A stretch of 64,000 nucleotides of DNA from Cyanidioschyzon merolae. Taxonomy: Eukaryota. The stretch is taken from assembly GCA_000091205.1 (NCBI GenBank), contig AP006487.2. One strand, given 5' to 3'. The notes beneath the pieces were generated by a model that was not told the origin of the DNA, did not search any database, and saw only the letters and a program-made list of their open reading frames with translations. Shown here in pieces: positions 13,762-55,060 of the stretch. Both the position numbers and the translations under genes were made by a program. Each line of letters starts with the position of its first letter. The stretch's first letter is position 1.

Positions 13762-13971
13762 AAACTTGCAGCGGAGTTTGCTTTAAGTCAGTTCCCCGAA
13801 AGGCGTCGTGCGCTTAACCTGTTGCACAGGCGCACGTGCCAGCACAAAGTGGCAGCGTTATGGATCGGCGCACACCTGCACATAGCAGCGTTCACGTTTG
13901 TACCCGTGGCTGTGCAGCCCAGTGTTGTTGCAGAGTCTGCGTCCAGGAGAGTGCAAGGAAGCGGCATGGAA

Positions 13972-15345: not shown

Positions 15346-15985
15346 CATGTTTCGTACGAGGCGCTCGCGAGGATCACCCGCGTGATACTGGGACGCGCTC
15401 GAATGCGTTGCACTCACAGAGCCTCAGTTCTCACTGGTCCCCGTGGGGCATCGTATTTGGGACGGCTTCTGCCGATGCATCATGAATCTAATCGATATAT
15501 GTGTATCTTCAGTCAGCGTGGTGATTGCATCTGTATCGCTCTGCGAGGTGTCTGGGCTCTCCGCGAATGCGTATGGTGCCCGCATCGAAAGTTTCGACAG
15601 ACGGGGTGCCAGTGGTAAAGTGAGGCTGTAACCAGGCTCTTGGAAAGACGCGTTTATCGAACAGCGCTCTGTTCATGATGTAGAACGTGTAAACACGAAG
15701 CTGCAGTCACGACATGTGCTCTGTGAAAAACAACGAGGGCCCAGGTATGCTCTGGGCCATCGCTTGGAGACAGGCTCCCTCATCCTCCATCTGTTTTGCA
15801 CAGGAGAGAGGCCGCATAGTCAAGAGATCAGCGGCCTGACATGTGTACGATGCAAAGGTAGCAGTCAGAGCCTTCTGATCCACCGGGTGTTTCCAGGACG
15901 CCCGGCGCTGCACCTACGGAGCTCGCGCTTGCGCTGGACTCTAGGGTTCAACACCCGTAGCGCTTGTCTGTTTGCGGTCGGTACT

Positions 15986-23659: not shown

Positions 23660-24500
23660 GTTACTGAATAGTTCAGGGAGAACTGCATTCCTGCTTCGGG
23701 TGAATCATAACACTGTGCTCAGATATCTGAGGAACACTGAAAGAAACAGGTACATGCGTTCCGCGCCAAAACTGGCTCAGTGAAAAACTGCCCGCAATCA
23801 ATCGTATGAAACGGCTCTTTAATCGCCTTACGGAGAACAAAAGCGACGACAGTAGCTGCCAAGAGCGTCTACGTATCTGAATACCTCGTTGGTGCGGTCC
23901 TGAAAATACTTGGGTACAGTCGCATATAAAGTCCAATGTCATTCACGGCCATCTTCAACCGAAATGTCCATTACAGCATTCCAGGGAAGTCGCCATCCGT
24001 ATGAAGCACAGGGATGTGGGTTTGTTTTTCCAGTCGATGAAACTTCCTTCGAACAGAACGGTCAGAGCATGTATAGGTACCCGTGGAGACGGAGCCCGTT
24101 GTATGTGCGATCGAAATCGAAGCGAACTGAGACATCATCACCTGTTCTCGCTACAGTAGATACATTTGGCGGCCTTCGTTTCTCTCCTAGAGAAGGCTCA
24201 TGCAACAGCACCATGCATTTTGTCAAATCACTGAGGACTTTTCTCAGACGCCTGGCGACATCTTTCTATTGGACAACGAGGTATTTCATCTTTCCTCCTC
24301 CGTTCGAGATTTTGCCGATTCTATAGGGATAGGCTTGCTTCTCGTTCCGCCGTACGCTCCGTGATTCAAACCAATCGAACGGGTGTTTCCTATCGTGAAA
24401 CGTAATGATCGCTTCACAGAGCGACTCACTGAAGCGTTCAGCACACGGTGATTCCAGGGCAAATGCCGTCTTGCTTCCGCAAATCCTTCTCGCTCCGAGG
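23660..24500 (+). mobile_element. Tc1/mariner-superfamily (DD34E) transposase relic
   Basis: HTH-like VNHNTVLRYLRN (~23700-23740). First D in VFPVDETSF (gat 24036-24038). Second D in LLDNEVFH (gac 24272-24274). E in LLLVPPYAP*FKPIERVFPIVKR (gaa 24377-24379), 35 codons after D2. In-frame stop and frameshifts present. Confidence 0.6.
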
Positions 24501-24559
24501 GGGGTCCTCTGGCGAGAGCATAAAGGAGTAAGCTCATTTTAAAGAAATTAAGGGATGAG

Positions 24560-25215
24560 CCGGGATGTAAACTCCTGAAGGCCGAAATGGAGGAACGTCA
24601 GCGAAGCACTTCGGATATAGAAAAGCCCGGAGCGCTGTTCGAGCAGCAAATGGCACAGAGGGCACGAGTTCGAGGACTCCGTGCACTGGTGCGTTCAACG
24701 AGCTCCAACAAACGCATGGAGTTCGTGAACAGGGACGAAAACGCTGCTATCAATATCAGACGATTTGCGGTGCCAAAAACGGGACCCGATGAGCAGACCC
24801 GATCCAACGTTGTGGGGTCAGCGTCTCAAACTCGAATTGCATATGGATAAACAGAAACAGGTAGCAGCCGGCAGGCAGGCAGGCAGGCCGTGCAACACTG
24901 GAAGGCGGCAGCACGTCGGTATACATTGAGCGTAACGACGCGAAGCGTTTTCGCTCTGATAACCACATAGCCCAGTCGTCGTATGCTTTTTCTGAGAACC
25001 GTTTCTCGTGATAGTGAAACGCATCGCAGTGGTACTGGTTGCGAATACTTCGCCAGGAAGGGTTTAAAAATCTAGTGACAAGCTGGGGCGTCTCTCCACA
25101 CTCTTGAACGGACACCGGGGACGCCTCCAGTTGCAGCGCACAGTCGTATGAGCTGCTGCCGCGTCGCACTGTACTCTTAAACGGACACGTGGGACACCCT
25201 AAGTTGCAGATCGCG
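24560..25215 (+). pseudogene. TnpB/Fanzor-like relic, family I copy A (3' module plus non-coding tail)
   Basis: AQRARVRGLRALVRSTSSNKRMEFVNRDENAAINIRRFAV (D codon 24734-24736). It aligns at nucleotide level with the copies at 42.2, 48.7 and 54.8 kb. Downstream, ~24900-25215 shares diverged blocks with the tail of copy B (cgctct..catagcc; acggacacgtgg). Confidence 0.55.
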
Positions 25216-29444: not shown

Positions 29445-32400
29445 CGCCACAGGCAGTACAACCGAGCATTTTGCCAGCAGCACCGCGCATGAGACGCAAA
29501 TCTACAGTTGTTGTGGCTGCATTCCTGTGCAATGACGACGGTTCCTCAGTGTATCGATCTGGACCTGGAATGTACTACGAAATGCTGCAAGCATCGAAGC
29601 GATGCTGTGTCGATATGCACCGGTTCCCCGCTGTATTCATATGCTCGATTCGTGCGGGACACGTGGAGGCTTCGACTCTCTGCGCCACCCTGAACAGAGA
29701 GCGTGCCCGCTACCTATCGCTTGTTACTTGCTACCGGTCTGGTTGGAGCGCTTTCATTGATCTCCTGGGGAACGCAGGAAAAAAGACCAGTTCGAGTCTG
29801 GCAATTGGAAAAGCGTGCCCCAAGTTTGACGCCCGTCTGAAGCATGCCATCACATCCTACGTCGCTGCTAAGGTCGTTTTCCGAATAATTAATTTCAGTT
29901 GGGGCTGCGTCGCCAAGCCGCGGACCCCGGATTTTTACTACTGTATCCATAGCGAACAGCGTAGTGCACTCCACTATAGGAAAACGACGAGTTGAGAGTC
30001 TCCTTTGGCACCTTGCTGACTATGATTTGGATTGCGAACTCCATGTGGAGTCGGTGCTGATCCGTTTTGCGCCAAGGAACAGCAAGTGTTCCATCCTTTT
30101 CCATAAGTGCTGTGGTGCAACGAACCACTTCAGCGAGCTCGAGTTGTAGAATCTCTTCGACAGTCCCTGTATACAGAGCAACTGCCTCTACTGCGCCAGC
30201 AAATGCGCTGATTGCGACTACGCAAGCGGTTCCCTGCTGACCGCAACACTGTGCAAGCGATGCTCAAGATACCGAGCGGTGCTCGGTACGTCCAAGATTC
30301 ACAGCTCCCAAGCTGTCGATTTCGCTTCAGAAAGCTGATCAAGTGGATGCTCCGTACAGCTGCGATTCGTAATGCAAACAAAGCACCAGGATACGCCTCG
30401 AGCGACATTGACCACAGACAGCTTGTAAATATGTCGCGATCGAGTCTATACATCGACTTTAGGGCAATTTGGGTTGAACGTGGGCATATTGCGCCACCCT
30501 CTTGCGCATCTGAGAGCACACCAGCACCCCAAGCATTCGACGCATAGAGGAATAGATCGCAGGCGTCGGGATCAAGCCGTGCCGCTTCCGCATGTCCGGA
30601 ATTTTTGCCGGCGATTGGCCAGATGCACGCTGCTACTACTGGAGCCAGCGCCTGCAGTATCTTGAGTAATCGTCAATTCCTGAGATGTTTTTGGTTGCAA
30701 TCAGAGCAGCGAATGTCCGATTACCCGTACCAGCACGCTCTTTTGGTTATTGTTTGGTTTTCTTGCAGGTATTCGATAAAAAGAATGCATCGTGTCGATC
30801 CGATTACAGTCGCTGGATGAATTGGTATTGTCTGTGGTAGCTCGCGAAAAGAACGGCCCCACCTGTGCCTGTCCTTCTATAATGAACTGGGGCATGAACC
30901 GCTTTTCTCATCGCTCTGATCCGACACGTCAGTCTCCCGCAGTAGAACCCTCCAGAACCTCTCTTCGACTGTTTCCTTGCCGATTGATTGTGTAGCGTAC
31001 TTGGATGAAGAAATACTACCAAAGTCACCGCTGGATTTTGACGCCTCCGTACCGCTAATGACAACGGTGATGAAGAGACCCAGAAATACGAATCGAAAAG
31101 CACGCCTGTATGCTAGATAGTCACGCGTCGAAGAGCGCAAGACTGATCTCGTCGTGAAACGCGAGCGCTTATCACAGGACGAACGAGAGTTCATCTCGTG
31201 CAACGAAATGTCCTTCGGGGGAAATGGTACACCTGCACTTGGCTACGCAAACCGGAGCAAACCACTGTTCTGAAAGACGAGCGAAACGGGACGGACGACA
31301 ACACCAGCCCTAGCAGCGATTTAATCCCTTGATCACCGAATCGTCGCCGAACGGACAAGATCGTTCAACAACTCGTGCTTGGTCGACGTATTCTGTGGCT
31401 TCTTTTTTCCCATTTTGTTCCGTCCGGCTCGTAGGTATCATCGGATTGCGTCAATCAGGAGCGGTCAAGGACACCGCAGCTGGCATCGCAGTTGAGCTGG
31501 TCTCTGTGCTGGCTTGTTTTCTCTGGCTCAATCGAAACGAATTCGTTTTTCCAAGACATCCCAGAGCATTTCTATGTTCATCGATGATTAAACGAATCTT
31601 TCGCGTTCGCGACACCAAAATATGCTGCGTACTTTTACGGATCGCAACCCCCCTTCACCGCGCTCGTCTTGCCTGGCTTTTCTGTTTCCTGCCTCGACGC
31701 GTCTCCTCAACCGATTGTTCATACAAGTTTCGGAAGCGAGATCGCCAGTTGTCTACACTCCACTCGATTTTTCGATCAAACCTTCGCGCGACAACACGAC
31801 ACAAATGTTCAGAGCAGATGATGCGATTCGACGTGAGCGAGGCATCAGCGTTTTGCGCATATGCGTACCAGCATATCTTGCCGCGTCGCCGCGCCATCTC
31901 GACGATCGAAGTATGTGAGGTGCCGGTCCTAAAACGTACCAGGCAAACCTCAGAAAGCAACATCATGTCCGGGTTCAGTTCGGGCGCTTTATGAGGCGCG
32001 CATTGTCGACGTTTTCCAGTCATGGTACTGGCCCAGAAAAGTGGGCACTGTTTGAAGGTATGCTACCGTTCAGAGAGAACACGAGCGATCAAGCGGCGCA
32101 CGCGGACGATCGTTACGGGGCGTTCATACGAGCGCGCGGAGGTCACCAACAGTTTCGGTTGTACAGAAGCAAGAAGCGTACATGCACTCACTTCGACTAA
32201 GAGTTGTAAACGAAAATCTCCGATATGTCGTGTGGTTGGGTGCCAGGCAATGGCGCTGGAAGCACTGGAGCGCGCGATGACTGCACCCTTGCGGACTTGT
32301 GGACGGCGTCCAACGAGTGCGGGAATCGATTCCATACGACTCCCGTAGATGCATTCAGGACGATGCCCTCGCATCAATAGCATGGGTGCTCAATGAAACA

Positions 32401-33700
32401 GGCAGAGAAAAAGCACCTGAAACAGAGCCGGATACACGAGACGGTGTACGTCAGGCCGAGCGAACATCAGCTGGCGAGAATATTGACGACCAGAGGATTG
32501 CAAAAGCGAGATTTCAGGAGCAAAATACCTCGATGTACATCCGGGAATGTCCGGTGTTCGCACAGCGCCCAACAGCTTGGTGATCAACGAACCTTTGAGG
32601 GAATCGCGCAGTACTTCGTGTAAACACGGATCTGAAACGCTGAAGACTTGCGATGGAAAACAACAGTGACCATGACAGCGTGTATTTCATCCATGTTTGA
32701 AGCAAGACACTTGTATGAGACGGTTCAGCAGTCCAGAATGGCTGCCATGCCCCATATATACACATGGAACGGTTTTCCTAGAAATTCATGAACGAATATC
32801 CTGCTCCGTAATTCGACTTGACGATGTACCGACATGCAAAGCGGCGTCCTAGGTGCTCTAGCCTAGACGCCCGCCCCCGAAGACCTGCACGGTGTCGCCC
32901 TGCGAGCCTTATTTACCGCACCATACATCCCTGGGATATTTATGATGGCTCCGGCCTTGAAGATCACGCGTTTGTGTGTACGTCAGCAGCGTCGATGCGT
33001 CGCTCTAAAATCCATCTACACAGGTGTTCACGGAATGCTCGGCATTTAAAAGCGAGCCCGCTCAACTTCGTATACAATGTGTCATGCATGTAGACTTGCA
33101 TTTTCGAACGAGATCCGTCATTGGGGCACCAGCTCGAGACTGATCAAGCATCAAGCTTCGTGCACGGTAGACAGGCTGTGCTATGAACGGTTCGGCATTC
33201 GACGCCAGGCGCTGAACCCAGACTTGCGTCACCGTACAGTGCGTTTAGGGTTCCATCAGCAGTGCCTCGTTCTTTGCGTTCGTCCTGCAATTCTCCAGGT
33301 CATAGAAGCGTATCCGCAGCATGAAACTGTTCAGTGTGAGCCGAAGTAGCAACATCCAGCATAGGCATTGAAGCGCGTGTCCTATAGATTCCAAGTGCCT
33401 GTGAGCGCTCCCGCACCGGCGATGCACCTTCGTACGAGGACGCGCTCCATACCAAGTCAGCCGAAACATTTCCTATGAATCAAGTGAGGCAGAACTCGCG
33501 ATTTGTGCACTAATCCAGAAGCACGCTTTCGGGAAAGCTTAGCAACAGAATTCGGGCGATTATGTTTTGGTCTATGGTCGAGTCTTGGCTGGGAATCCCA
33601 GCTACGCAATGGATACCGACGTCAGGGAAAGCGCTAACGCATACTCGGCACTCTACGGATTATATGAACGAGCCGTTGCCTCCAACAGGGAATATGGATG

Positions 33701-34087
33701 TATCCGGCGAGATATAGAGACCTGGTGCGGAATGACTAGTGATTTCATAGGCACCGTTGAGGTAGTCGTCTGCAGGGAACTCCTGCTCGTGTCGCAGAAG
33801 CTGCGTTACCGCCACACCAGCATCGAGTGGTATCCGGCGAGATATAGAGACTTGGTGCGGAATGACTAGTGATTTCATAGGTACCGTTGAGGTAGTCGTC
33901 TGCAGGGAGCTCCTGCTCGTGTCGCAGAAGCTGCGTTACCGCCACACCAGCATCGAGTGGTATCCGGCGAGATATAGAGACTTGGTGCGGAATGACTAGT
34001 GATTTCATAGGTACCGTTGAGGTAGTCGTCTGCAGGGAACTCCTGCTCGTGTCGCAGAAGCTGCGTTACCGCCACACCAGCATCGAG
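33701..34087. repeat. 130-bp tandem repeat, ~3 units
   Basis: tatccggcgagatatagagac starts at 33701, 33831 and 33961. Units are >95% identical by eye. 130 is not a multiple of 3, so the repeated peptide in minus-strand ORFs (MKSLVIPHQVSISRRIPLDAGVAVTQLL..) shifts frame between units. Confidence 0.95.
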
Positions 34088-38762: not shown

Positions 38763-40277
38763 CTACGCAATTGCACGTTTACGGCGTACGTATCTTTGCA
38801 CGAGCTCCGCAAACTGCGTCGCTGGACAAGCCCTCTGAATGAACGGATGCGTCAGGAGCCGATCTACGCTCCAACGATCCATGGGTTGCATCGCGAGGCA
38901 GGAGTGTAAAAAGTGGTGAAATTCTGGGCTCCAGCGGGCAGCTTCCGCCAGCTTGGGCGGCCCTCGGGTCGTGATCAGGAACATGGCCCGGAGCGGTGTC
39001 TCTTTGATCCATGGAGGCTCGCCCTCGGCGCATTCTATGGCGAGAATCCCGAGGCTCCAGACGTCAACTTTGTAGTCGTACTCCATGCTTCTGATGAGTT
39101 CGGGCGCCATCCAAAACGGAGTGCCAACGCATGTCGTTCGCTTGTCGCGCTCTGGTGTCAACTGGGCACAATATCCAAAGTCAGCGAGCTTGATGGCCCC
39201 CGACGATTGACCAAGCAGACAGTTATCAGACTTGATATCACGATGGATGCGACGTAGGCGGTGCAGCTGACCGAGCGCAATCAGAACCTCTCGGCAGACA
39301 TAGGCGATCTCTGGCTCCGTCATTCGTTCACCATGCTCTGCCAGATCATAAAGCAAGTCTGTGAGACTGCCCCCGTCCATGTATTCGAGAACAATCCACA
39401 TCGTGTTGCGATGGAGAAACGCCTCGTGAACCTGCACGATGTTCGCGTGGCGAGTGCTATGCATCATGAAGATCTCCTGCTCGAGCGCGCTCATGACCTT
39501 TTCGGACCGAACTTCGACCCTTTTCATCGCAACAATTTTGGTTGGATCGGTTCGAGAGGCTGCCACATAGACAACGCCCATTGCACCCTCGCCCACTTTA
39601 CGCAGGCGCACGTAGACGTCGCTGGGGTCTCGTTCCTGAATGGCGGGAAAGCGTCCCGAGGCCCTCAGTACAGGCTCGCCCCCGGTTTGGCGTGCATCTT
39701 CGGGGCTCGTCTCAGTGAGCAGCTTCGCAGCCGAGTCATCCTGGTGGAGCGCGGTCCGTTCGTTGCGCTCTTTTAAGGCTGCGACTTGGCTGGGATGGTG
39801 CGTTGGCGACGCCGCCCCAGATCGACGCAAATGAAAGTCCATGATATCGCGTACGACTTGCGGATTCGTCAAGACCTCTGTGCGACTGATACCGTTGCCA
39901 ACGAGTAGGTGCTCCCACTCGCGTGGGAGGCCAGAAAATCCCGTCTCAGAGGTGAGGTCGCGGCGCACAGTCACTTTCTTGCGAACCTTGATCGGTGTCC
40001 CTATCTGGGGTGTTTCCTCAGTACTGTCGGATACATCGTTTTGTTTCGGTGCTGTGGGCTTCATATTCGGCTTTCTGGTGCTGGCCGTCCCCGGATCCGT
40101 CGCGTTGTCTGGCGCGTGGCGTGCACAAGACGGCTTGCGCTTCACTCCAGTCGAGGCGTGCGTCGGGGTTCTCGTCAACGCGCTTAAGGCAGCGAGACCC
40201 GCTAACGCGCGCAGTGCGCCTTCAGGTTCAGCAGAGGTCTCCGGGCTCTTGGAGCTGCGCTTCACTCGTGTCTTCAT
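38763..40277 (-). CDS. STE20/PAK-family serine/threonine protein kinase
   Basis: GEGAMGVVYVA, VAMKRV, HRDIKSDNCLL, ADFGYCAQL, GTPFWMAPE, DVWSLGI. The upstream PAK-type box is GLPREWEHLLVGNGISRTEVLTNPQVVRDIMDF. I found no clear CRIB motif. Confidence 0.88.
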   Translation of the reverse strand: MKTRVKRSSKSPETSAEPEGALRALAGLAALSALTRTPTHASTGVKRKPSCARHAPDNATDPGTASTRKPNMKPTAPKQNDVSDSTEETPQIGTPIKVRKKVTVRRDLTSETGFSGLPREWEHLLVGNGISRTEVLTNPQVVRDIMDFHLRRSGAASPTHHPSQVAALKERNERTALHQDDSAAKLLTETSPEDARQTGGEPVLRASGRFPAIQERDPSDVYVRLRKVGEGAMGVVYVAASRTDPTKIVAMKRVEVRSEKVMSALEQEIFMMHSTRHANIVQVHEAFLHRNTMWIVLEYMDGGSLTDLLYDLAEHGERMTEPEIAYVCREVLIALGQLHRLRRIHRDIKSDNCLLGQSSGAIKLADFGYCAQLTPERDKRTTCVGTPFWMAPELIRSMEYDYKVDVWSLGILAIECAEGEPPWIKETPLRAMFLITTRGPPKLAEAARWSPEFHHFLHSCLAMQPMDRWSVDRLLTHPFIQRACPATQFAELVQRYVRRKRAIA

Positions 40278-42009
40278 CCGCAGTCACCGAAAGCCTTCAC
40301 AAACGCAAGCACAATGCGGGCGCTGGAACGCACCACCGGAGGTGCTCAGCTTCCGGAGGATCCCGATACACGTCGCGATGGCGGACACGCGGGCATTCGA
40401 ACAGCGGCCGCCGTCGGCATCGCGCACACCCAGCGCACACACTGCAACGGCCGGGGTGCGGCGGCGCTCATCAGGGACGGATCAGCGCCGGCGTGCTGTC
40501 CTCCGGCGCGGGGCTGTCGACAGCCGTAGAGCGCCCGCCGTTCCCGCGGCTGGAGAGGCGGCGGCGCTCGCAGTTCCCGCTGCACCCTGGTGCGAGTCCG
40601 GGAGCCTGCACCTTCAGGTTGCAGCACTGAGGGCGGTGGGGATCGGCGTGGGCGCGCCCAGCTCCACAGCATGGCAGGTCTCTGCATGGAGTGCATTTGC
40701 ACAAGAAAGTCGCATCGAGGACTCTGCGTATCTGGACTGCATGTGCGCTTTGCCGATACACGTATACCAGAATAAGACGGAACAGGTCCACGCAGCGAAC
40801 ACGGGCGTGCCTAATAAAGTTTTGATCGCTTCCCGTAAGAGTCAACACAAGATTTTGTGCGTATTTTTGTGACTTGTTATTTTTATTGCTCTTTTTTTGC
40901 TGAATTTCAATGTGCTGGTCTCTAATGTGTCTGCAGCTCCGTTTGTCAGCAGTCGAAGAATGCTGATGGCAGCGTTCTCCTCCCGAGTTCGCAGCATTCG
41001 ATTCTCATTCACGCATTTCGAACAGGCAGGCTGAAGTTGCGATCTCGGCTGCGCTTGTCATGATCATATCCTTTGTAGACAGCCTCAGTGCGCCCTTTGC
41101 AGCATGAACCTTGGCCACGGTCAGTGATTACCGTACGTGCACGACACGACACCTCTTCCGAAAAATGCCCTGTGCCGCACCAAGGAATGCTTCGCTGATC
41201 GGTGTGCGCGTTTGACTGGTACAGAGGGCCCGATGTGTTCCCTGTATTCGTTTTCGCGCCCGGTGCCGTGTTCTCCGATCATGGGCTTGCTCATGGCGAT
41301 CCTTCCAGGGTGTACGCTATCCCCTGCACGCACACGCTGTAACATTGGATGGGCGATTTTTTTGGAACGCGATCTTGTTCATGATGGAGCGGTTGGCGGA
41401 AGGGAATTCCAGGATGGTGAGCAATAGAAAAAATTTAGAGTCGTTTATGTTCAGTTCCTAGAACGCAGTGACATACTCTCTACTCTGAGTAATCGCCGCA
41501 ATGACTGGTGTGCAGCACGAGTCGTTGCTTCCGCTGTGAGCGGCGAGGCTGGATATCGGCGTCATGGCTGGTGCCTGCTCGCAGACGGGTGCTGCGATGG
41601 TCACCTGGCACCGCTTATGGCACCCAGAGAACCGCTTCTGCTGCACGTTCGAACAGACGACGGAGCCAGCGGACCTCTGTGACGACCTCGAAAGCTAGCC
41701 AGGTATTCCAGCTCCTTTGGCGGTGTTCCGCGACGGTTTCATCTCGGCAATGATGCAGCGGATGCACCTCGAGGACAATGGAAACCTACGCTTATCGAAG
41801 TCTGAGCGCGTCTTGTCGCAACGAACTCCAGAGACTGGCATGTTTCGCGTCTCGCATGATACGCTGGCCTCGTTTTAATGTTGCACCTCATTTGTGTTCC
41901 GCTTGCAGGTGCGTGTCATCAAGTGCTTCCTCGCGGGTTATAGCGGACGTGTTCAAAGAGCGTCCATTTTCAAAAATAAACTATCCTAGGGAGATGTGTA
42001 TGTATGAAA

Positions 42010-42690
42010 ATCGGGGATCCTGATGTGCTAGTGTCGCCGGTTTCAACAGAAAAAACGAAAAATTCTCTTCTCACCGACCATCGAGCGAAGGAGAGCAAGT
42101 TTTATGAAAAAGTAGAAAAAGAGAGGAACGGCGGGTGAAAAGTTTTTGTATGCCTGATGTGACGATTACGAGACTGTAACGGGACAGAGGGCACACTGAC
42201 GAAGGCGCCTTGCATTGATGAGTCCCATCAGAGGCAGCAAACGCATGGAATTCGTGAACAGAGACTTGAACTCCGCCATCAAAATCAGACCATTTGTGTT
42301 ACAAAAGGCGAGGCGCGCGGAACTTACGTTAGCGAAAGGTTTGGGACAGCCTCTCAGGTTCGAAGTGTACACGGGACAAATTGAAACCGATATCTGGTTG
42401 CTGGTCAGAAAAAGGCTTCGAGGCGCCTGTGAGTGCGTATCATTTTCCCCTGTCGAGCCGACGCTCTCTGTGGTGCGGCATAGCCGTTCTGTCTCCGTGC
42501 AAGGACCGCATCGGCCCTGTAGACGCTATCGCCGACGCTCTGGGCATGCACTCGGCGCACGATAGAACGTACGGAACGACCATTATATCCGAGAGAAAGT
42601 ATGGGTTACGGAACGTGGAAGTAAGGCGTGGAATGAGGGATACCTTACAGCGCGCTGATGACGAGCGCAGAATCCGAGAACGCTCGCCAC
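42010..42690 (+). pseudogene. TnpB/Fanzor-like relic, family I copy B (5'-truncated, plus tail forming the left palindrome arm)
   Basis: SKRMEFVNRDLNSAIKIR (D codon 42263-42265). Upstream, ..ccatcgagcgaagg.. aligns with copies C and D. Downstream conserved block LVRKRLRGACECV. The tail from ~42452 is the left arm of the palindrome. Confidence 0.5.
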
Positions 42691-42987
42691 AGCAACCACT
42701 TTGGCATTTTTTCACTGACAAAACGTTTACTTAGGCCAGCGTTCTCCGATTATGCGCTTTTTTCTTTTCTTTCTTTTTTTTCAGTGCGAGGTGAGGTATC
42801 CATCAACCCCCTACCTCCATGTTACATTACCTATACTTCGTCTCGGATATTCTGGTCGTTTCATACGTCCTATCGTGTGTGCCTAGTACCTGCCGTTCCG
42901 TATTCGCGTCTGCGCTTGAACCGCTGGAGCAGATAGCTCATAGGGCTAAAACAGCTTTTCTATACCACAGAGGGCGTCGGCTCGAGG
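42452..42987. repeat. Large imperfect palindrome (inverted duplication): arms ~42452-42688 and ~42734-42987, 45-bp centre
   Basis: The reverse complement of 42795-42878 matches 42558-42644 (cacgatag.acgta..gaacgacca..atatccgaga..aagtat.ggt...gggatacc). It extends inward (gcgcagaatccgagaacgctcgcc 42665-42688 vs revcomp of 42734-42757) and outward (ctgtcgagccgacgctctctgtggt ~42450-42474 vs revcomp of 42961-42987). It also shows as YFLSDIMVVPYVLSC / YFVSDILVVSYVLSC in opposite-strand ORFs. Confidence 0.85.
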
Positions 42988-42989
42988 TG

Positions 42990-45900
42990 TGCTTCATCCG
43001 ACGTAGAATCGGGTCTCGTCGTCAGTTTGTGCTCGTACAGTCTGCGGATGCAGGCTTGCCTTCGCTGCACGACACGCTGGAGAAACTTGGTTGTTAGGAT
43101 GAATTCTGGGAGCTGCCTCTCTCCTTCGTGATCATGCATGGAATGCATTGTTGTCGGTTGGCTATGCGGATTTGTGCTTGACACCCACTACAGAAGGAAG
43201 GCGTAGAGAGCACTAAACCCGTGTGCGCATCCGATCCGCTGGACCTTCCGCCTAGAAGGTAGCACGTGAGTTTGTTGGCCACTAATGAGCACTGAGGATC
43301 TGTTAGCGAACCATCAGTTGCCAGTGCTGCACTCAGAGTGAGTGTCCGGCCTTCGACTATCACGGTGTTGCCGAGCTGCTGCTGTCCTTCGAGGAGCTCG
43401 CTGCGCTCCTGCTTCTAGCGCGGCCACTGTAGGCCTAAATATGTCAGCGTCTCGGGGATTTCGTCTCGATAGCAGGTACAGTGTGACTCCCAGTGCGATT
43501 CCAGGGTTCCTATCCGGCTTAGAGCCGGTGCTGGTAGCCAGGAGCCACCAACGCTGATTTTGGCGAGCCACTGGGTACCTCGAGCAAGTCCCGGGAATTC
43601 CAGCGCCTCCCACCAGTAATTGCATGTGTATGCTAGGTTGTAGTTCCGGTATAGAGTCAAGCCGGCGTTACTCGCGCGACTGGTACTGTATCTACGTTCC
43701 CATATTGTTGTTCGGACCGTTCGCTTGAGGCGACGGGAGAATTCTATATTCCTGGGGAATGATTGGGTAGCGTGTTTTCGCCTAAGAGGCGCTTCAGCCA
43801 AATCTGCGCTGATTTCATCCAAGTGATCTTGCGGTGCGTTGGGGTCTGCATGGATATCCGACTGAACCAGGTGTTCATGGTTGGCCCTTTGCCCCATATG
43901 CGTGCCCGGCAGCCTGCTGCTATCGCCTCTGTCGAGGGTATTTGGAGTTCAAGTCCGAGTGCCAGCAGGTTGGTTGCTCTGCTCTGCATTGAGCATCCAA
44001 CTACAACGAGTCGCATTGCCCTGTTGGCGGCTGTCTGCAGACGCGAGGCATTTGTGTGCTTCATGCCGCACCATTCAGCACCACAGGTCGCAGGCTGGAT
44101 GATACATATCCTTAGTGCGCTGGTACGGATTGCTAAGGGGATAGAGGGGTCGGATAAGAATGGGCATGCGATCGCTGTACGTCTATGCATCTTGGCGATC
44201 ATCTCGTTAACGTGTGCCTTTTCGTCGAGCGTCGGCGTGAGACAGACCCTAGGTAGCGATATTTTTCCACGATTGGAATTTCCTGATTCTGCAACCGCCA
44301 CGAGCGATTGCGAATGCTCTGCGAGTCTCCATGGATGGCCATGACGCCGCACTTCGATGCTCCTATGCTCATCTCCCAGCGATCGGCCCAGGCGCTGACT
44401 TGTTCCATGCTAGCCGCAAGCGTTTCCGGGGCGGGTGCCAACAGCACGACATCGTCCGCAAATAGAAGGCCTGCGAGGCGGTTCCCATATGGGCGCTCCC
44501 CATCGGGCATCTCCACAGTCTATCCACGGCACCTCAAGCCCGTATTGTCTGTAGTTGTTAAGCAGATCGTTGATGAAGATGTTGAAAAGGAGCGGGGATG
44601 CAGGATCGCCCTGTCGCAGTCCACGGCGGATTCTTATCGAAGGGGTTCTTGAGCCGTCGCCTAGTCGGATGCGCATCCACGAGTCTGCATAGAGCGCACG
44701 GAAGAACGCTAAGCACTTTGCGGAGACTCCGGCTCGTTCCATCTTCATAAATGGAGCCTCATGCGGGAACGTGTCAAAGGCCTTTTGGAAGTCGACGAAG
44801 CATACGTAAGTTGGTTGTTGGTCGCTAATGAAGCGACGTTGCACCACTTCAATGAGGGTCAGGGCATGGTTCATGCACTCCTCGTGGCTCCGGAATCCAG
44901 CCTGTTCTGGGGCGAAGAACTTGCGTTCCTGGAGGCCGCTGTGGATACGGTTCGTGAGCATGGCGCGAAGTAGCTTCATGATTGACGGGATGAGGCGCAT
45001 AGTCCGGTAGATGTTCATGTCTGTGTGTGTGTGGGAGTCCTTTTTGAGGATCGGTACGACCTCGACAGCCCTCCGTACATCTGGGATGTACGCTTCTTCA
45101 AACATGCGTTGAATGAGCTCCAGAAGGCGTTTGCCTAAGATTGTGTCAGGTTCATCTGGTATCGATGGTGTCCCTGTTGTCCCGTCTTTTGGGGTCGCCA
45201 GTTTCATCCACTCCGCAGGGATACCGTCGATGCCAGGTGTTTTGCGATTGCTTGAGCATAGCAGAGTCCGAACAGATTCAGGCCAGAAAATTGGGTCGTT
45301 CCATTCCGGTACCGGGTCGAGGCGCGGTAGTTCTGCAGCATATCGGTGCCAATAGATTCGGTCTTAGCAGTGCCCAGTTGCGTCTTCATGTAATTCTGTG
45401 CCGTGGTCCGTCCAGGCCTCATTCACTGAGGCACGCTCCGTCCTCAGCGCTTCCTTTTAACAGTTGGTGTGAGCCCCAAGCACTTTCTTGGTGGGTCCAG
45501 TCTCGATCGGATGTAGCCTGGGGTTTCATCTTCGTTGGTGCTCTTCAGCATAGATTCCGCCAGGGAGGCCATTTTGCGGTTTCGATCCTCTCGTTTGTCT
45601 TCTCTGGAAAGTTTCTTCGTTCTTTTGATAGCTTCCTCATGTTGCGCCTGTAGCGCCGGTAGCGCTGCCTTCGCTTCCTTGTCTCCGGCGTTGGCGCGTA
45701 TGGCGGTGCGGTTGACAATCTTGTTGAGTCGGTGGCATTCATGAATCCGAGTTTTGGTACGTCGTTTGAGGTACTGCGGCTTGCTACTGTTGTGTTCAGG
45801 TGCAAGCAGTCCCAATTTTCTGGCAATCTTCTGATTCCCATCTACAAACTCGCGTGCCAATTGGTCTGAAGATTTGTATTCACGGCTTTTCGGATCTTCA

Positions 45901-46950
45901 GCGCTGTGAGCAGGTGCCTGGGATTGGCGACGGCTTTCTTGAGTTCCAGCTGGGGTGCCCTTTCGGGGGATACCTTGTGATGGGCTCGTTTGGGAGTTCT
46001 TCTTTCTATTCTTCTGTTTTTTCTTGCTGGTCTACTTCTTCTTCGGGCTCTTTCCTGAGCTGCTTTCTCTGGTTATTTTGCATTTAAGGGGATCATGAGG
46101 TTTCTGTGTCTCTTTCTCCGTACCTCGTTGGGTCTCTTTTCCAATTGTAGAGTCCTCGACTTGTATCAGTTCTTCATTACTGTACTGGTAATTCGATATC
46201 TCGTGGTTAAATACCGAGGCGATCCCGCTAATATTCCATGATGCGAAACCTATCGAGTCGTAGCGCATAAGGGAATAGGAGTAACGCTGCGGTACTCCAG
46301 AGATACGTTGTCGATTTAGACGCAGCTTCCACAGGGTGTGTGAGAGCACATGCCACCATTGCCTCCTGCATTCCAGTCGTTCACTGAGTGTCTGCCGCAG
46401 CGCTAGCGTAGAATCAGATGTACATTAGTCAAGGTCGATTCGAATGCGAACTTTGTCTTTCCGGACGCGTGAAGCTACCCTCAACCATTGGGAAAAGTCT
46501 GCAAACCACCATTTCAGCGGCTTTGTATCCGCTCCCCAAACACATAGGCGGGCAAGTCGCTTATTCCACTTTCGACAGTGAGCATACTGCCAGCTGTCTT
46601 CCAAAGTATCCGCCGAGATTGTTTCCAAAGTTGAGGTAGGTACTCAAGGTAGAAGGTGAAACTGAGCCCGAATTCAGGGATGGATCCAGTATTTGTGCCC
46701 GAACCTGCAGCGTTGTTTCGGGAGCAGCGGATGACTGCGCTCAGAATTATCGTCATCATTCTCTGCTACTGCCTACGCCCCTCCGTTCGTTGCGGTCAAG
46801 GCCCCTGGCGTGGACTTCCTTCGCAGTCGCTCAAGCACCCCGCGTTAACCCACTTTCAGAGGTTCTCCGGAAAGACTAGACCCCTTAGGCGGACGTGGTT
46901 TGTGGGGCTTTTAAGATAGTGGTTCCTTGATAAATAGTTTGCGACTAGTT
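42990..46950 (-). mobile_element. Non-LTR (LINE-type) retrotransposon relic: APE-like endonuclease plus reverse transcriptase, multiply frameshifted
   Basis: RT blocks on the minus strand: PGIDGIPAEWMKL, NIYR.., FDTFPHE, RRGLRQGDPASPLLFNIFINDL, GLLFADDVVLLA (D codon 44456-44454), YLG, PATCGAEWCG. C-terminal Cys motif: CTCYRDEIPETLTYLGLQWPR. Endonuclease-like fragments at 46.0-46.9 kb (FYLEYLPQLWKQSRRILW, VWGADTKP, NHEISNYQ). The 3' limit is uncertain. Confidence 0.8.
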
Positions 46951-47159
46951 TGCATCGCGCTCGGTGAGCGCACCTCGGAGATCGGGCAGGCATGAGACGC
47001 TACGCGCATGCCACTGTTGAAGGGAAACACGTGACCTTGATCAATAGCGTGTTGTTCTGCTGTAAAAGTCGGATTCCCGTTGAGGGCGTAGCAAAGTATA
47101 GTTTTCAGTTCATTTCTGTTTCAACCCTCAAGTAAAAATACTCGAGTGTTTTTTCGCAG

Positions 47160-47167
47160 TATATAAG
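47160..47167 (+). promoter_or_regulatory. TATA-like box (TATATAAG) ~210 bp upstream of the family I copy C start codon
   Basis: Direct reading, inside an A/T-rich block (47100-47340) that is unusual for this window. No functional evidence. Confidence 0.2.
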
Positions 47168-47376
47168 AGAAGCGTTCAAAGAGCATTCTTTTTAAAAAAA
47201 CTAAAAAAAGGAAAAGTATGTAGGAGCAAGTCCACGATCCTGGAGGCCCACTGTCGCAGGCTGCCAGAAAGAAAACAAAAAACAGTGCCGAGTCCAGAAG
47301 AACAGGGAGAGAGAAGAAGAACCGAAGAGGGGAGGCCCTACGTCGAAGGTGGCAAGAAAGACGACTGTACAACGAG

Positions 47377-48980
47377 ATGGTGGTGAAAGCCTTTCTTCTT
47401 GGACATATCAAGGATCCCTACAGGGAAAAGTTGCGAGACGCTATCGAAAAACGTGTCGACTCGTATTCCGAGAGTATTATCAAGGCGTCGTCAGGGCTGA
47501 TGCATTTGGCGAGGGAGATGTATCGCGACATGGCGCACATGGAAACAGTCGAGATTCCGGACGAGTTTCTCGACATGACCTTTATTTGTCAGCTAATGCT
47601 TGGTACAGCGGAAACGCGGAAGGAAAATGTGCTAGTGCACGCCCTCCACGAAGAACATACCTTTTACAGCTTCAATGGTACTCGATACAAGGTGACGGAG
47701 ATATTTACATCTATGGGGCGATGAAGTACCTCACGAATCTGAAGAACCATTTGACAATGAACCTCGAACGTTTCACGGTACGCGCCGTGTGTGCACTCTA
47801 CCCGGGCCTATCTCGCAAAGGAAAATGGGCGATTATCAATGGCATCACGAAAGATCGTAAGCATGAAGATGAGACGGATTTCGTTGACAAGAAGGCGTCA
47901 AACGAGAGCACGAATGAAGCTTCTGTAATCCGTGCTGCTATTCAAGAGCACCGTGCAATCCTGGGACTGGATTATCCAGCAGAAAAGATATCAGAGTTGA
48001 AAAAAGATAAGGAAACATACGATCGCCTCATTCTACGGTATTTCGTGTTTCTGGACCAAGAACTCGAACGCGAGGCGGAGATGAAGGTGAATAGGGGAAA
48101 AATGAAGAGTGGGAGAGACGGAAGGCTGTCCTAACGGGGAAGCGCTTCAACGTGGTTCCATTGTGCAACATCAAGTCAGATTTTGTGACCATCGGCTCCG
48201 GCGTCCTTTACGGCATCATGAAGCAGATCAGTCCGGAGTTCAGTGTCAGCAGGGAGGACTTCACCGGCGAAAACCGGGAGACGTACTGCAAGAGTATCTT
48301 CGATTTCAAACGTCTGAGAGTGAGCAAGCAAAAGTTGTTTACTGGGATGATCGTAACCGATGGAGTAGAATTGTGTGCAAACTATCGGCGGTTGAAGAGA
48401 GATCGGCCAGTCCCTCCCTCGGCTGCGCCCGTGACGAAGGATCAAGAAAACAAAGAGGTGTATCCTGCGACGCAGGAGGTGGAGGATAGAGACCTTGTCG
48501 TTGACGTGACCAAGGATGAAGAAAGGGAGGAGGCGGATCTTGCGACGCAGGAGGTGCAGGATTACGACCTTGTCGTAGGCGTGGACCCTGGGAATACGAA
48601 TGTCCTAACCATCGCAGCACCGAAGCGTGCGGAAGATGGAAAAGTGCCAGCGGAATCCTGAAGATATACAAAAGTACGGACCGCTGACGGAAGGGCGAAT
48701 GGAAAGGAGAGCGAAAGTTCGAGGATTGCTTGCATCAGTAAGTACAACCAGTGATGGCAAGAAACGGATGGAGTTTGTGAAGCGAGGTTTTAATGCCGCA
48801 ATCAATCTACGGAGATGTGCGGTGCTAGAGAATAAACCTCCAGACTGGACAAGAAGGAACCTTGTTGGACAATCTCTCAAAGGTGAACTATATGAGAGAA
48901 AGCTGGAAGCAGTAGTGGGTAGCCAGTCCAAAAAGACGGGGGGGGGGCGTCTGCACGTCAGCTGGAGACGATTTGTCTAA
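47377..48980 (+). pseudogene. TnpB/Fanzor-like gene, family I copy C: longest copy, N-terminal ~400 codons retained, three frame changes and an internal deletion of the RuvC-II/zinc-finger segment
   Basis: Four consecutive ORFs in frames 1,0,2,0: 47377-47724, ~47700-48134, 48152-48661, 48627-48980. RuvC-I-like [17 protein letters not shown] (gac 48584-48586). RuvC-III position KRMEFVKRGFNAAINLRR (G instead of D, ~48786) lies only ~67 codons later. A 60-bp internal duplication gives [14 protein letters not shown] / [15 protein letters not shown]10 homopolymer at 48938-48947. Confidence 0.6.
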
Positions 48981-49117
48981 GGCGCGTTCGCCGCCATTGC
49001 TGCGTACTGCCGGCGTCGTTCGACTTCGAACGGCGTTCGTGACCGAAGCTCATCCGCGGATCCAGCTGCACGCCGCTGCTTCATTCAGGACGCGTTGTAT
49101 AACAACGTCAGGGAACC

Positions 49118-54350: not shown

Positions 54351-54569
54351 AGGTAGTGCAAAGAACACACCGTACCGGTAAGTCGCGCGTGCCGTGGAGG
54401 CGAACGCTGTCGTTCATTCGGCAGCGCTCGAGGCTGGCACCGACTTGCCCGACTAGATGCACTACTTTTTGCTCTTTGACCACAGTGAGATTGATTAGTC
54501 AGGTGTGTGTCATCAAATGCCTTATTCGGTTTATAGCAGATGGGCTGCAAAGTGCGTTCATTTAGAGAA

Positions 54570-55060
54570 ATAGAGAATATAAGATATAGGTATGGAGATT
54601 GAAGTCGAGGATCCTGGATTGCCTCTGTCCACGGGTGTCGGAAAAGAACGGGAATTTTCTCATCTTTTCGACGATCGAGCGAAGAAGACCAAGAAGAGGG
54701 GAGATGGACCACAAAAATGTGTTTGCCCGACGGGGCGATGACGAGAATCTAATCGCACAGAGGGCACGAGTTCTGGCAATCCCTGCATTGATGCGTTGCA
54801 CCAGATGAACTGCATAGAACGGCTCGTGAACGGAGACTTCGACGTCACAAGCAATATCAGGAGATGTGCGGTGCTGAAAACGAGACTCGCGGAGCTGACG
54901 CGAACTAAATTCGAGTGGCAGCCTCTAATACCCCCAGTGTGCCTGGATAAAAACCGCAACCGATGGCAGTCGGCGGATAGAAAAAGACTGGGCGGTGTCT
55001 GCGCGTGGGCAGCTATATGTACTCTCGATGGTGGTAAAACATTGCACGTTTTATAAATCA
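54570..55060 (+). pseudogene. TnpB/Fanzor-like relic, family I copy D (most degraded)
   Basis: ILDCLCPRVSEKNGNFLIFSTIERRR aligns with [21 protein letters not shown] of copy C. AQRARVLAIPALMRCT then CIERLVNGDFDVTSNIRRCAVLK (gac 54835-54837) aligns with KRMEFVNRDENAAINIRRCAVL. The tail block is RKRLGGVCAW. Confidence 0.45.

What the first reader, a model, noticed from the sequence alone, without database searches (positions are those of the whole stretch)
42452..42987. ~540-bp palindrome formed by the family I tail and an inverted copy of itself
The left arm (42452-42688) is the non-coding tail of family I copy B. The right arm (42734-42987) is its reverse complement at roughly 80-85% identity by eye. 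A 45-bp non-palindromic centre (acagcaaccactttggcattttttcactgacaaaacgtttactta) separates them. The only large difference is a 24-nt T/C-rich run in the right arm (42758-42781), where the left arm has ATGACGA. Transcribed, this would fold into a hairpin of more than 200 bp. As DNA it is a potential cruciform or fragile site. It lies exactly between the nuclease relic and the 3' side of the LINE relic.
Basis: seen in the sequence. Interest (0 to 1): 0.55.

Follow-up and report, generated by a model that had tools for sequence, protein, structure and literature searches.

The report
Two retroposon tails joined tail-to-tail
The ~540-bp "palindrome" is real, but it is two decayed copies of related mobile elements of the red alga Cyanidioschyzon merolae (the 3' end of a LINE and a short LINE-tail element) lying end to end in opposite orientation, and nothing points to a function.

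Summary
The window is Cyanidioschyzon merolae 10D chromosome 5. The inverted repeat exists: the arms are 76-79% identical and far above shuffles, and the same structure sits in 7 independent metagenome assemblies, so it is not an assembly error.

It is not a self-copied "tail of family I". The right arm (42707-42987, minus strand) is the last 281 nt of a ~4.25-kb non-LTR retrotransposon relic (46953->42707). About 20 other LINE copies lose homology to the window at 42703-42707. The left arm (42447-42706, plus strand) is a separate copy of a ~285-nt non-autonomous retroposon. That family (23 clusters by BLAST start) has an A-rich 3' end, 8-23-nt target-site duplications and 5'-truncated copies.

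The two arms belong to different subfamilies (left 81% to its consensus, right 94% to the LINE consensus). They are therefore independent insertions, not an in-situ inversion. The "45-bp centre" is mostly palindromic. The true spacer is 9 nt, which is the LINE's terminal GTG plus A6.

"Family I" is a relic of the published Fanzor1 element CMe-1A. The longest perfect arm match is 12 nt, and Cyanidiophyceae lack Dicer and Argonaute, so siRNA or cruciform roles are unlikely. This is an ordinary transposon graveyard feature.

The parts
41820..42445 (+). 'Family I copy B': a degenerate 3' part of a Fanzor1 (CMe-1A-type) element. It is context only and not part of the palindrome.
   Evidence: tblastn of 41000-42700 finds relatives at 54359-55002, 24583-24859, 47114-47326 and 48705-48908. 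Fanzor-family proteins P0068/P0092 match 42188-42385 (E = 3e-10). The motif SKRMEFVNRDLNSAIKIR is visible. The family is identified with CMe-1A through PMC3627910.
42447..42706 (+). Left arm: one copy of a ~285-nt non-autonomous retroposon ('class B'). It is full-length at its 5' end (consensus start CCTCGAGCCGACGCC). It lacks the internal A/G-rich linker and the last ~10 nt (ATG plus poly(A)).
   Evidence: Aligned with 18 class B loci. Its head matches the class B consensus at 82/99 (score 65) against score 25 for the LINE consensus; overall it is 81% identical to the class B consensus.
42707..42715 (.). Junction and true spacer TTTTTTCAC. This is the reverse complement of the LINE's terminal GTG plus A6 tail, and it directly abuts the last base of the left element.
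   Evidence: the repeat finder block I2. Homology of L001 and about 20 other LINE copies to the window ends at 42703-42707.
42707..42987 (-). Right arm: the last 281 nt (3' tail) of the LINE. It comprises the core, the A/G-rich linker (42758-42781 on the + strand), module Y (42713-42757) and A6.
   Evidence: L001 1-2879 equals window 45568-42707 at 94% in a different genomic context. 94% to the LINE-tail consensus; head 95/105 to the LINE consensus against score 33 to class B.
42707..46953 (-). Non-LTR retrotransposon relic (~4.25 kb), frameshifted. The RT ORF at 44410-45207 is annotated 'retroelement' BAM79381.1.
   Evidence: Pfam RVT_1 E = 3e-19. Exact match to BAM79381.1. FADD motif in a shifted frame. 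Colinear with L101 and L002 to 46945.
46954..49040 (+). Fanzor1 element 'Z' (CMe-1A body, internally deleted), head-to-head with the LINE 5' end. Context only.
   Evidence: At least 20 copies at 73-85% with sharp ends. tblastn with P0092/P0068 at 47832-48959. ORFs of relatives carry [17 protein letters not shown] and KKRMEFVNRDFHAAINIR.

Best explanation
The palindrome is a by-product of two separate retrotransposition events. It is not a unit with its own origin or function.

A ~285-nt non-autonomous retroposon (class B) sits on the plus strand. It shares its 3' ~190 nt and first ~25 nt with the 3' tail of the C. merolae LINE. A ~4.25-kb LINE of the same broad family sits on the minus strand. 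Their 3' ends meet tail to tail, so their shared tail sequence reads as an inverted repeat.

Shown:
- Both arms are ordinary members of dispersed families.
- They belong to different subfamilies with different divergence.
- The LINE's 3' end, with its A6, is complete at the junction, while the short element lacks its last ~10 nt.

Inferred:
- The older short element was resident, and the LINE integrated later by target-primed reverse transcription. The priming nick would lie on the plus strand at the resident element's 3' terminus, where the family's terminal ...GTC(A/C)ATG-A(n) offers a CA|T core like the family's target consensus (CA|TCG).
- The ~10 nt at the centre were lost at integration or by a later central deletion.
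- The locus is a transposon graveyard (Fanzor1 relic - short retroposon - LINE - Fanzor1 element) in a very compact genome.
- No function is implied.
For: Organism and annotation: exact protein look-ups.

The right arm is the LINE tail:
- L001 carries a 94% identical LINE copy in another genomic context whose homology ends at window 42707.
- About 20 further LINE copies lose homology at window 42703-42707.

The left arm belongs to the class B family:
- 23 of 68 clusters start at tail coordinate 92-94 by BLAST and share their own ~93-nt head.
- The alignment of 19 loci shows a common start, an A-rich end and flanking duplications.

TPRT hallmarks of the family:
- 21 loci have TSDs of 8-23 nt and a target consensus of CA|TCG.
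- A6-9 tails are present.
- 5'-truncated copies occur.

Independence of the arms: left 81% to class B and 73% to the LINE consensus; right 94% to the LINE and 87% to class B; the heads discriminate clearly.

Recurrence of the arrangement:
- L038 has another retroposon with a complete poly(A) end abutting an inverted class B copy that lacks its last ~25 nt. The junction again falls at a CA|T site if the resident copy carried the family-consensus base there.
- L120 has a tail-to-tail pair 45 nt apart.

The structure is real and stable: 7 assemblies at 99.0-99.6% with no gaps.
Against: - Neither arm has a confidently identifiable target-site duplication in the window. The only candidates (CATTTTCC/CATTTTTTC; TTTGGCA/TTTGCA) are at noise level.
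- The expected remainder of the left element's 3' end and flank is not found beyond the LINE's 5' end, where a Fanzor1 left end lies instead. At least one extra deletion or rearrangement is needed.
- The order of insertion rests only on divergence from consensus (81% against 94%) and on which 3' end is complete.
- L101 shares the LINE-5'/Fanzor junction but has a different 3' end, which I cannot explain.
- Metagenome contigs mix LINE paralogs inside the repeat.
- The LINE's endonuclease domain could not be identified.
Confidence: 0.85

Rival explanations
1. Same two elements, opposite order. The LINE was resident, and the short class B element later integrated at or in the LINE's poly(A) end.
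For: A weak candidate duplication, CATTTTCC (42441-42448) against CATTTTTTC (42705-42713), would flank the short element (my reading). Both orders give the same initial A(n)/T(n) centre.
Against: The short element has no poly(A) and lacks its last ~10 nt, whereas every other class B copy ends in A6-9. TPRT starts at the RNA 3' end, so the later arrival should be the complete one, and the LINE is the complete one. The left arm is more diverged from its consensus (81%) than the LINE is from its own (94%).
Confidence: 0.1
2. In-situ inverted duplication: a fold-back or replication template switch copied the tail next to itself, and the arms have since diverged.
For: The arms abut with a spacer of only 9 nt. 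The flanks are unrelated.
Against: The arms belong to different subfamilies. In the ~70-nt variable head segment, the left arm matches the class B consensus and the right arm matches the LINE consensus. The right arm is continuous with 4 kb of LINE body, as in other LINE copies. The A/G-rich linker is present in both family consensuses and is simply deleted in the left arm.
Confidence: 0.02
3. A MITE or foldback DNA transposon: a 536-bp element made almost wholly of long terminal inverted repeats, inserted between the Fanzor relic and the LINE.
For: The best conserved stretch lies at the outer ends (TCGAGCCGACGC, 12/12).
Against: The unit as a whole occurs at one locus only, which all 8 contigs share. 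Each arm occurs alone at dozens of loci, with an A-rich 3' end, variable TSDs and 5' truncation. The conserved outer end is simply the common 5' start of the tail module. No TSD flanks 42447/42992.
Confidence: 0.02
4. A functional hairpin RNA locus (a source of small RNAs or a structured regulatory RNA).
For: Strong in-silico hairpin, z = -14.3.
Against: The hairpin energy follows trivially from any inverted repeat. The longest perfect duplex is 12 bp. Cyanidiophyceae lack Dicer and Argonaute (PMC12770821). There is no Rfam match at gathering score and only one chance-level hit at E = 0.15. The arms evolve as neutral transposon copies, and the A-linker was lost on one side only.
Confidence: 0.02
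5. Assembly artefact (a false inversion in the reference).
For: None found.
Against: Seven independent short-read metagenome assemblies reproduce 42300-43100 without a gap at 99.0-99.6%. The reference is a finished genome (PMC1955436).
Confidence: 0.01

Closest known systems
LINE/SINE partners that share a 3' tail, and LINE-derived non-autonomous elements without a pol III head (for example ingi/RIME and L1Tc/NARTc of trypanosomes); from my own knowledge of the field
   Same: A short element carries the partner LINE's 3' tail. It has an A-rich end, variable TSDs and 5' truncations, and it shares the same target-site consensus as the LINE copies.
   Different: No tRNA-, 5S- or 7SL-like head was found, so it is not a canonical SINE. 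Apart from a ~70-nt replaced segment, it corresponds to the LINE's last 281 nt. Mobilisation by the LINE is inferred, not shown.
Closely spaced inverted retroposon pairs, such as inverted Alu pairs in human DNA (my own knowledge: such pairs are unstable when the arms are nearly identical and close together)
   Same: Two retroposon copies in opposite orientation with almost no spacer form a long potential hairpin.
   Different: The arms are only 76-79% identical with indels, and the longest perfect run is 12 nt. The structure is identical in 7 assemblies, so no instability is visible.
C. merolae non-LTR retrotransposons (26 class I elements; Nozaki et al. 2007, PMC1955436)
   Same: The right arm is the 3' end of one of these. 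Its RT ORF is the annotated 'retroelement' BAM79381.1.
   Different: The papers I could read do not describe the 3' tail module, the target consensus or the short derivative families.
Fanzor1 element CMe-1A and TE-N2_CMe (Bao & Jurka 2013, PMC3627910)
   Same: 'Family I' and element Z are this Fanzor1 family: about 80% identity among many copies, no TIRs, and a TnpB-like RuvC motif. A ~610-640-nt 'group C' element directly in front of Z fits the description of TE-N2_CMe (635 bp, equal to the 5' end of CMe-1A).
   Different: The palindrome arms are not part of the Fanzor element.
MITEs and foldback transposons
   Same: A short non-coding unit dominated by inverted repeats.
   Different: There is no TSD around the unit, no other copies of the unit, and the arms are separately mobile retroposons.

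Membership tests
Non-LTR retrotransposon (LINE) 3' end: right arm | Reverse transcriptase of non-LTR type upstream on the same strand, continuous with the arm | tested here: met
   RVT_1 E = 3e-19 at 44410-45207(-). There is 94% colinearity of 45568-42707 with another LINE copy.
Non-LTR retrotransposon (LINE) 3' end: right arm | Defined 3' terminus with an A-rich tail, shared by independent copies | tested here: met
   About 20 copies end at window 42703-42707 with ...GTCARTG-A(n).
Non-LTR retrotransposon (LINE) 3' end: right arm | Variable-length target-site duplications and 5'-truncated copies in the family | tested here: met
   TSDs of 8-23 nt at 21 loci and a truncation series. For the window copy itself no TSD was found.
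Non-LTR retrotransposon (LINE) 3' end: right arm | Endonuclease domain (APE or REL type) | tested here: inconclusive
   Only RT fragments were recovered and no endonuclease domain appeared in any homolog. An APE-like N-terminal motif seen by eye (SWNISGI...LIQVEDST) is not evidence.
SINE / LINE-tail non-autonomous retroposon: left arm | 3' tail homologous to a partner LINE | tested here: met
   The class B consensus is 89% identical to the LINE-tail consensus and differs in a ~70-nt head segment.
SINE / LINE-tail non-autonomous retroposon: left arm | Discrete short unit, many dispersed copies, A-rich end, TSDs | tested here: met
   23 clusters start at tail coordinate 92-94. The window copy lacks the A-tail and a TSD.
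SINE / LINE-tail non-autonomous retroposon: left arm | Pol III-type head (tRNA, 5S or 7SL derived), which defines a canonical SINE | tested here: not met
   ARAGORN found nothing. Rfam at gathering score and at E <= 1 found nothing relevant. I therefore file it as a LINE-tail-derived non-autonomous retroposon, not as a SINE.
MITE / foldback transposon | The whole TIR-bounded unit is repeated in the genome and flanked by TSDs | tested here: not met
   The two-armed unit occurs at one locus only, and there is no TSD at 42447/42992.
Cruciform-prone perfect palindrome | Near-identical arms with a very short spacer | tested here: not met
   The spacer is short (9 nt), but the arms are 76-79% identical with a 24-nt indel, and the longest perfect run is 12 nt.
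Hairpin-RNA / endo-siRNA locus | Dicer/Argonaute machinery in the organism, and small RNAs mapping to both arms | not testable with these tools
   The literature states that Cyanidiophyceae lost Dicer and Argonaute (PMC12770821). No expression data were available here.
Fanzor1 / TnpB-like element (family I, Z) | RuvC-I, RuvC-II and RuvC-III motifs with a zinc-finger region in the encoded protein | tested here: inconclusive
   The motifs [18 protein letters not shown] and NRDxNAAINI are visible in ORFs of relatives. Pfam and PDB sequence searches gave no hit. Membership rests on Bao & Jurka 2013, who list one Fanzor1 family (CMe-1A, ~150 copies) in C. merolae, and on Nozaki 2007's 253-copy repeat.

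The most novel reading that the evidence does not exclude
Tail-to-tail palindromes may form recurrently in this genome because the LINE's endonuclease prefers CA|TCG-like sites, and the family's own 3' terminus (...GTC(A/C)ATG-A(n)) offers such a site on the opposite strand.

The same preference would make the left end of the Fanzor1 element (..CA|TCGCGCTCGG) a hot spot for insertion. In that reading, the unclassified repeat TE-N2_CMe, and hence the 5' 635 bp of 'CMe-1A', is a LINE-dependent retroposon. The roughly 150-250-copy Fanzor1 family, which has no known transposase, TIR or TSD, would then have spread as a composite with a retroposon.
Probability: 0.15. Interest if true: 0.5.

Novelty: new member of a known kind. 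Interest (0 to 1): 0.2.

Why it matters
For the palindrome itself, little: it removes a candidate "structured" or "fragile" locus and shows it to be two neutral transposon remnants.

The by-products are of modest use to people who work on C. merolae repeats and on Fanzor:
- a defined 3' tail module of the C. merolae LINE;
- a ~285-nt derivative family and a ~610-640-nt derivative family;
- a CA|TCG target consensus;
- sharp left and right ends for the Fanzor1 body, whose boundaries and mobility were left open in 2013.

Tried and rejected
- Homology of the flanks beyond the arms, at DNA and six-frame protein level: none.
- Other arm copies in the window by profile search: none.
- My first idea, that the left arm is a randomly 5'-truncated LINE fragment, was replaced by "discrete class B element" once the shared head and common 5' start were seen.
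- The idea that element Z is the 5' part of the LINE was rejected. Z has its own sharp ends and no poly(A), and the LINE homology stops at 46945-46953.
- The idea that the left arm is the Fanzor omega-RNA or right end was rejected. Other Fanzor copies do not carry it, and copy B lacks the last ~28 nt of the Fanzor right end.
- Twin priming was rejected on geometry, since it puts the tails outside, not at the centre.
- TSD search for both window elements: nothing convincing.
- A conserved RNA structure in the tail core: RNAalifold found none on 49 copies. These copies were fished with a pattern lying inside that core, so its conservation is partly by construction.
- Rfam and tRNA scans: nothing.
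- Pfam and PDB sequence searches for the Fanzor-like ORFs: no hits.
- LINE endonuclease identification: only RT fragments.
- Using L002 and L101 to reconstruct the right-hand junction was abandoned. Contig identity drops to ~90% inside the LINE, which indicates paralog mixing.

Full report
**Where we are.** Six long ORFs of the window are exact matches to proteins of Cyanidioschyzon merolae strain 10D on a 528,682-bp record, which is the length of chromosome 5 in PMC1955436. They include the PAK kinase at 38763-40277(-) (BAM79380.1) and a 265-aa ORF at 44410-45207(-) annotated 'retroelement' (BAM79381.1). That ORF is a reverse transcriptase (RVT_1, E = 3e-19). The genome is a finished telomere-to-telomere sequence with 26 non-LTR retrotransposons and a 253-copy, ~3.2-kb interspersed repeat (PMC1955436).

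**The observation.** The inverted repeat is real.
The score is 79.5, against -7.8 +/- 5.6 for shuffles.
- The repeat finder reports three inverted blocks. One of them (42664-42706 / 42716-42758, 77%) shows that most of the supposed 45-bp non-palindromic centre is itself palindromic. The spacer is the 9 nt TTTTTTCAC.
- No third copy of the arm exists in the window, and homology stops sharply at the outer ends.
- As RNA the region folds in silico into one long imperfect hairpin (z = -14.3). However, the longest perfect complementary run is only 12 nt.

**Not an artefact.** Contigs from seven independent metagenome assemblies of Cyanidioschyzon-containing hot-spring samples carry 42300-43100 colinearly, without a single gap, at 99.0-99.6% identity.

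**What the right arm is.**
- A metagenome contig (L001) holds a 94% identical copy of the LINE in a different gene neighbourhood. Its homology to the window runs from 45568 down to 42707 and then stops.
- A scan of metagenome contigs with a 26-nt tail pattern brought 120 loci.
- About 20 further LINE copies in those loci also lose homology to the window at 42703-42707.
- The right arm together with 27 nt of the 'centre' is therefore the last 281 nt of the LINE. It ends ...CGTTTTGTCAGTG followed by A6 (window 42712->42707).
- The T/C-rich run at 42758-42781 is an internal A/G-rich linker present in the consensus of the family. In an older lineage and in L101 the element ends there.
- Upstream, the LINE is colinear with other copies to 46945-46953, giving a relic of ~4.25 kb.

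**What the left arm is.**
- Clustering the tail copies by flanks gives 68 clusters, which is about 60 distinct insertion sites.
- 23 clusters show BLAST homology to the LINE tail only from tail coordinate ~93. They are nevertheless preceded by a ~93-nt head shared among themselves at 90-96%.
- Aligned, they form a discrete ~285-nt element. It starts (C)CTCGAGCCGACGCC, contains the A/G-rich linker, and ends ...CGTTTTGTCAATG-A6-9.
- 21 loci across the tail-bearing classes (12 of them class B by BLAST start) have target-site duplications of 8-23 nt, and several copies are 5'-truncated. The target reads ..CA|TCG.. on the element's sense strand.
- These are the hallmarks of target-primed reverse transcription.
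- The window's left arm aligns with this family from its first base. It has lost the linker (ATGACGA in its place) and lacks the last ~10 nt, ATG plus poly(A).

**Independent origin of the arms.** This is the decisive test against an in-situ inversion.

| Comparison | Result |
|---|---|
| Left arm head (first ~100 nt) vs class B consensus | 82/99, score 65 |
| Left arm head vs LINE-tail consensus | score 25 over 43 nt |
| Right arm head vs LINE consensus | 95/105, score 85 |
| Right arm head vs class B consensus | score 33 |
| Left arm overall vs its own consensus | 81% |
| Right arm overall vs its own consensus | 94% |
| Left arm vs right arm | 76% |

**The junction and the likely mechanism.**
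- On the plus strand the sequence reads ...CCACTTTGGCA|TTTTTTCACTGACAAAACG.... The LINE's 3' end is complete with its A6, and the short element is the truncated one.
- Reverse transcription starts at the RNA 3' end, and the LINE copy is the less diverged. I therefore infer that the LINE integrated second.
- It would have been primed from a plus-strand nick at the resident element's terminus. The LINE's 3' flank (TGCCAAAG... on its sense strand) fits the TSD-start consensus (T, then C/G).
- The family terminus ...GTC(A/C)ATG-A(n) provides the CA|T core on the opposite strand.
- This step is inference. The match is short, and no TSD can be identified for either element in the window.
- Either order of insertion would first create a zero-spacer A(n)/T(n) centre. 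The missing ~10 nt may be a target-site deletion or a later central deletion.

**Recurrence.**
- Among the fetched loci, L038 shows the same configuration at an unrelated site. A retroposon with a complete poly(A) end abuts an inverted class B copy that lacks its last ~25 nt. The break falls at a CA|T site if that copy carried the family-consensus base there.
- L120 has a tail-to-tail pair 45 nt apart.
- For some 60-100 copies in 16.5 Mb, my rough estimate is that about 0.02 pairs within 50 bp would be expected by chance. This suggests either target preference or confinement of surviving insertions to transposon-rich safe havens.
- The sample is pooled from several assemblies, so this estimate is only indicative.

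**What 'family I' is.**
- Copy B (41820-42445) and its relatives in the window resemble a ~2.1-kb repeat at 46954-49040 (Z).
- The better-preserved copies of Z encode a protein with [17 protein letters not shown]...C and KKRMEFVNRDFHAAINIR motifs.
- This matches the published Fanzor1 family CMe-1A (~150 copies, ~80% to consensus, no TIRs or TSDs found; PMC3627910). It also matches Nozaki's 253-copy repeat.
- Pfam and PDB sequence searches were negative, so membership rests on motifs and the literature.
- Copy B's coding homology ends near 42436, and it lacks the last ~28 nt of the Fanzor right end. The left arm is an insertion next to or into it, not its tail.

**Function.** None is indicated.
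- The arms decay as neutral transposon copies.
- No Rfam family or tRNA is present.
- No conserved structure was found in the tail core.
- The RNAi machinery that would process a hairpin is absent from Cyanidiophyceae (PMC12770821).
- Cruciform extrusion is unlikely at 76-79% identity.

**Unresolved.**
- The LINE's 5' end abuts the Fanzor left end (...TAGTTTGCA|TCGCGCTCGG) in both the window and L101, yet L101 has a different 3' end and flank.
- L002 joins the LINE 5' end to a Fanzor right end. However, contig identity falls from 98-100% to ~90% inside the LINE, so these contigs probably mix paralogs.
- The remainder of the left element's 3' end and its flank was not found.

**Verdict.** This is a confirmed but ordinary structure: two retroposon 3' ends tail to tail in a transposon graveyard.

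Noticed in passing
window 46954-49040 (+); also L126 4607-7139, L127 4913-7427, L109, L020, L051: The Fanzor1 (CMe-1A-type) body has sharp ends. The left end is TCGCGCTCGGTGAGCGCACC.... The right end is ...GTCGTTCGACTTAGAACGGCGTTTGG, followed by unique DNA, with no poly(A). Bao & Jurka 2013 could not define TSDs or termini for this family.
   Followed up: partly
L051 ~1049/1055, L020 ~347/354, L078 ~4650/4659, L117 ~5290/5298, L045 ~1700/1708, L126 ~4603/4607, L127 ~4901/4913: In at least 6 distinct loci, a retroposon tail ending in poly(A) lies directly in front of the Fanzor left end (..GTCAATGAAAAAAA(GA)A|TCGCGCTCGG). Two of these loci were fetched through the Fanzor protein rather than the tail pattern. 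The site A|TCG matches the LINE family's target consensus CA|TCG. It could be an insertion hot spot or an amplified composite.
   Followed up: partly
L126 3966-4603; L038 469-1106; L001 7556-8132; L007 101-708; L017 2160-2734: A discrete ~610-640-nt 'group C' element occurs at 12 or more loci at 67-80% identity. Its 3' ~280 nt are homologous to the LINE tail, and it ends in a short A-run. It is found both alone and in front of the Fanzor body. Its length and position fit TE-N2_CMe (635 bp, equal to the 5' end of CMe-1A, class unknown in PMC3627910). If so, TE-N2_CMe is a LINE-dependent retroposon.
   Followed up: partly
window 24557-24883, 32000-32500, 42188-42385, 47832-48959, 54823-54927 (all +): There are five Fanzor1 relics in 64 kb, all on the plus strand. 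The one at 24.5 kb is preceded at ~24323-24400 by a weak DDE_3-like (Tc1/mariner-type) fragment, LLLVPPYAPxFKPIERVF (Pfam E = 0.026, below threshold).
   Followed up: no
window 13966-15352: A tandem array with a period of about 77 bp, roughly 18 copies, 94-98% identical. GC drops to 0.50 there.
   Followed up: no
window 33700-34087: Three tandem copies of a 130-bp unit at 98%. Alignments of the orthologous metagenome contigs break at 33827/33830/33957/33960, which suggests copy-number differences between strains.
   Followed up: no
window 48430-48640 (inside Z); L129 395-820; L130 1715-2222: A ~76-bp unit is tandemly repeated inside the Fanzor ORF region (acidic/lysine-rich repeats such as ...KHEEKKEAGPA.QEV.DND..V). 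Copy number varies between Fanzor copies, from 2 in the window to 6 or more elsewhere.
   Followed up: no
L002, L005, L059, L098 against window 43250-46950: Metagenome contigs are 98-100% identical to the reference in unique DNA. Inside the LINE body identity is only ~88-93% or mosaic. This is probably collapse or mixing of paralogous LINE copies during assembly, and it is a caution for using such contigs to study repeats.
   Followed up: partly
window 46946-46953 and L101 equivalent: The 8 nt TAGTTTGC between the LINE 5' end and the Fanzor left end are a copy of LINE positions 4-11 (GCAAACTA on the LINE strand). This looks like a 5'-junction microduplication, and it is shared by the window and the 90%-identical copy in L101.
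   Followed up: no
L113 (Ga0126383) and L122 (Ga0081455): Two of the 120 pattern hits come from other metagenomes and show no homology to the LINE or tail in BLAST. They are presumably chance matches to the 26-nt pattern.
   Followed up: no
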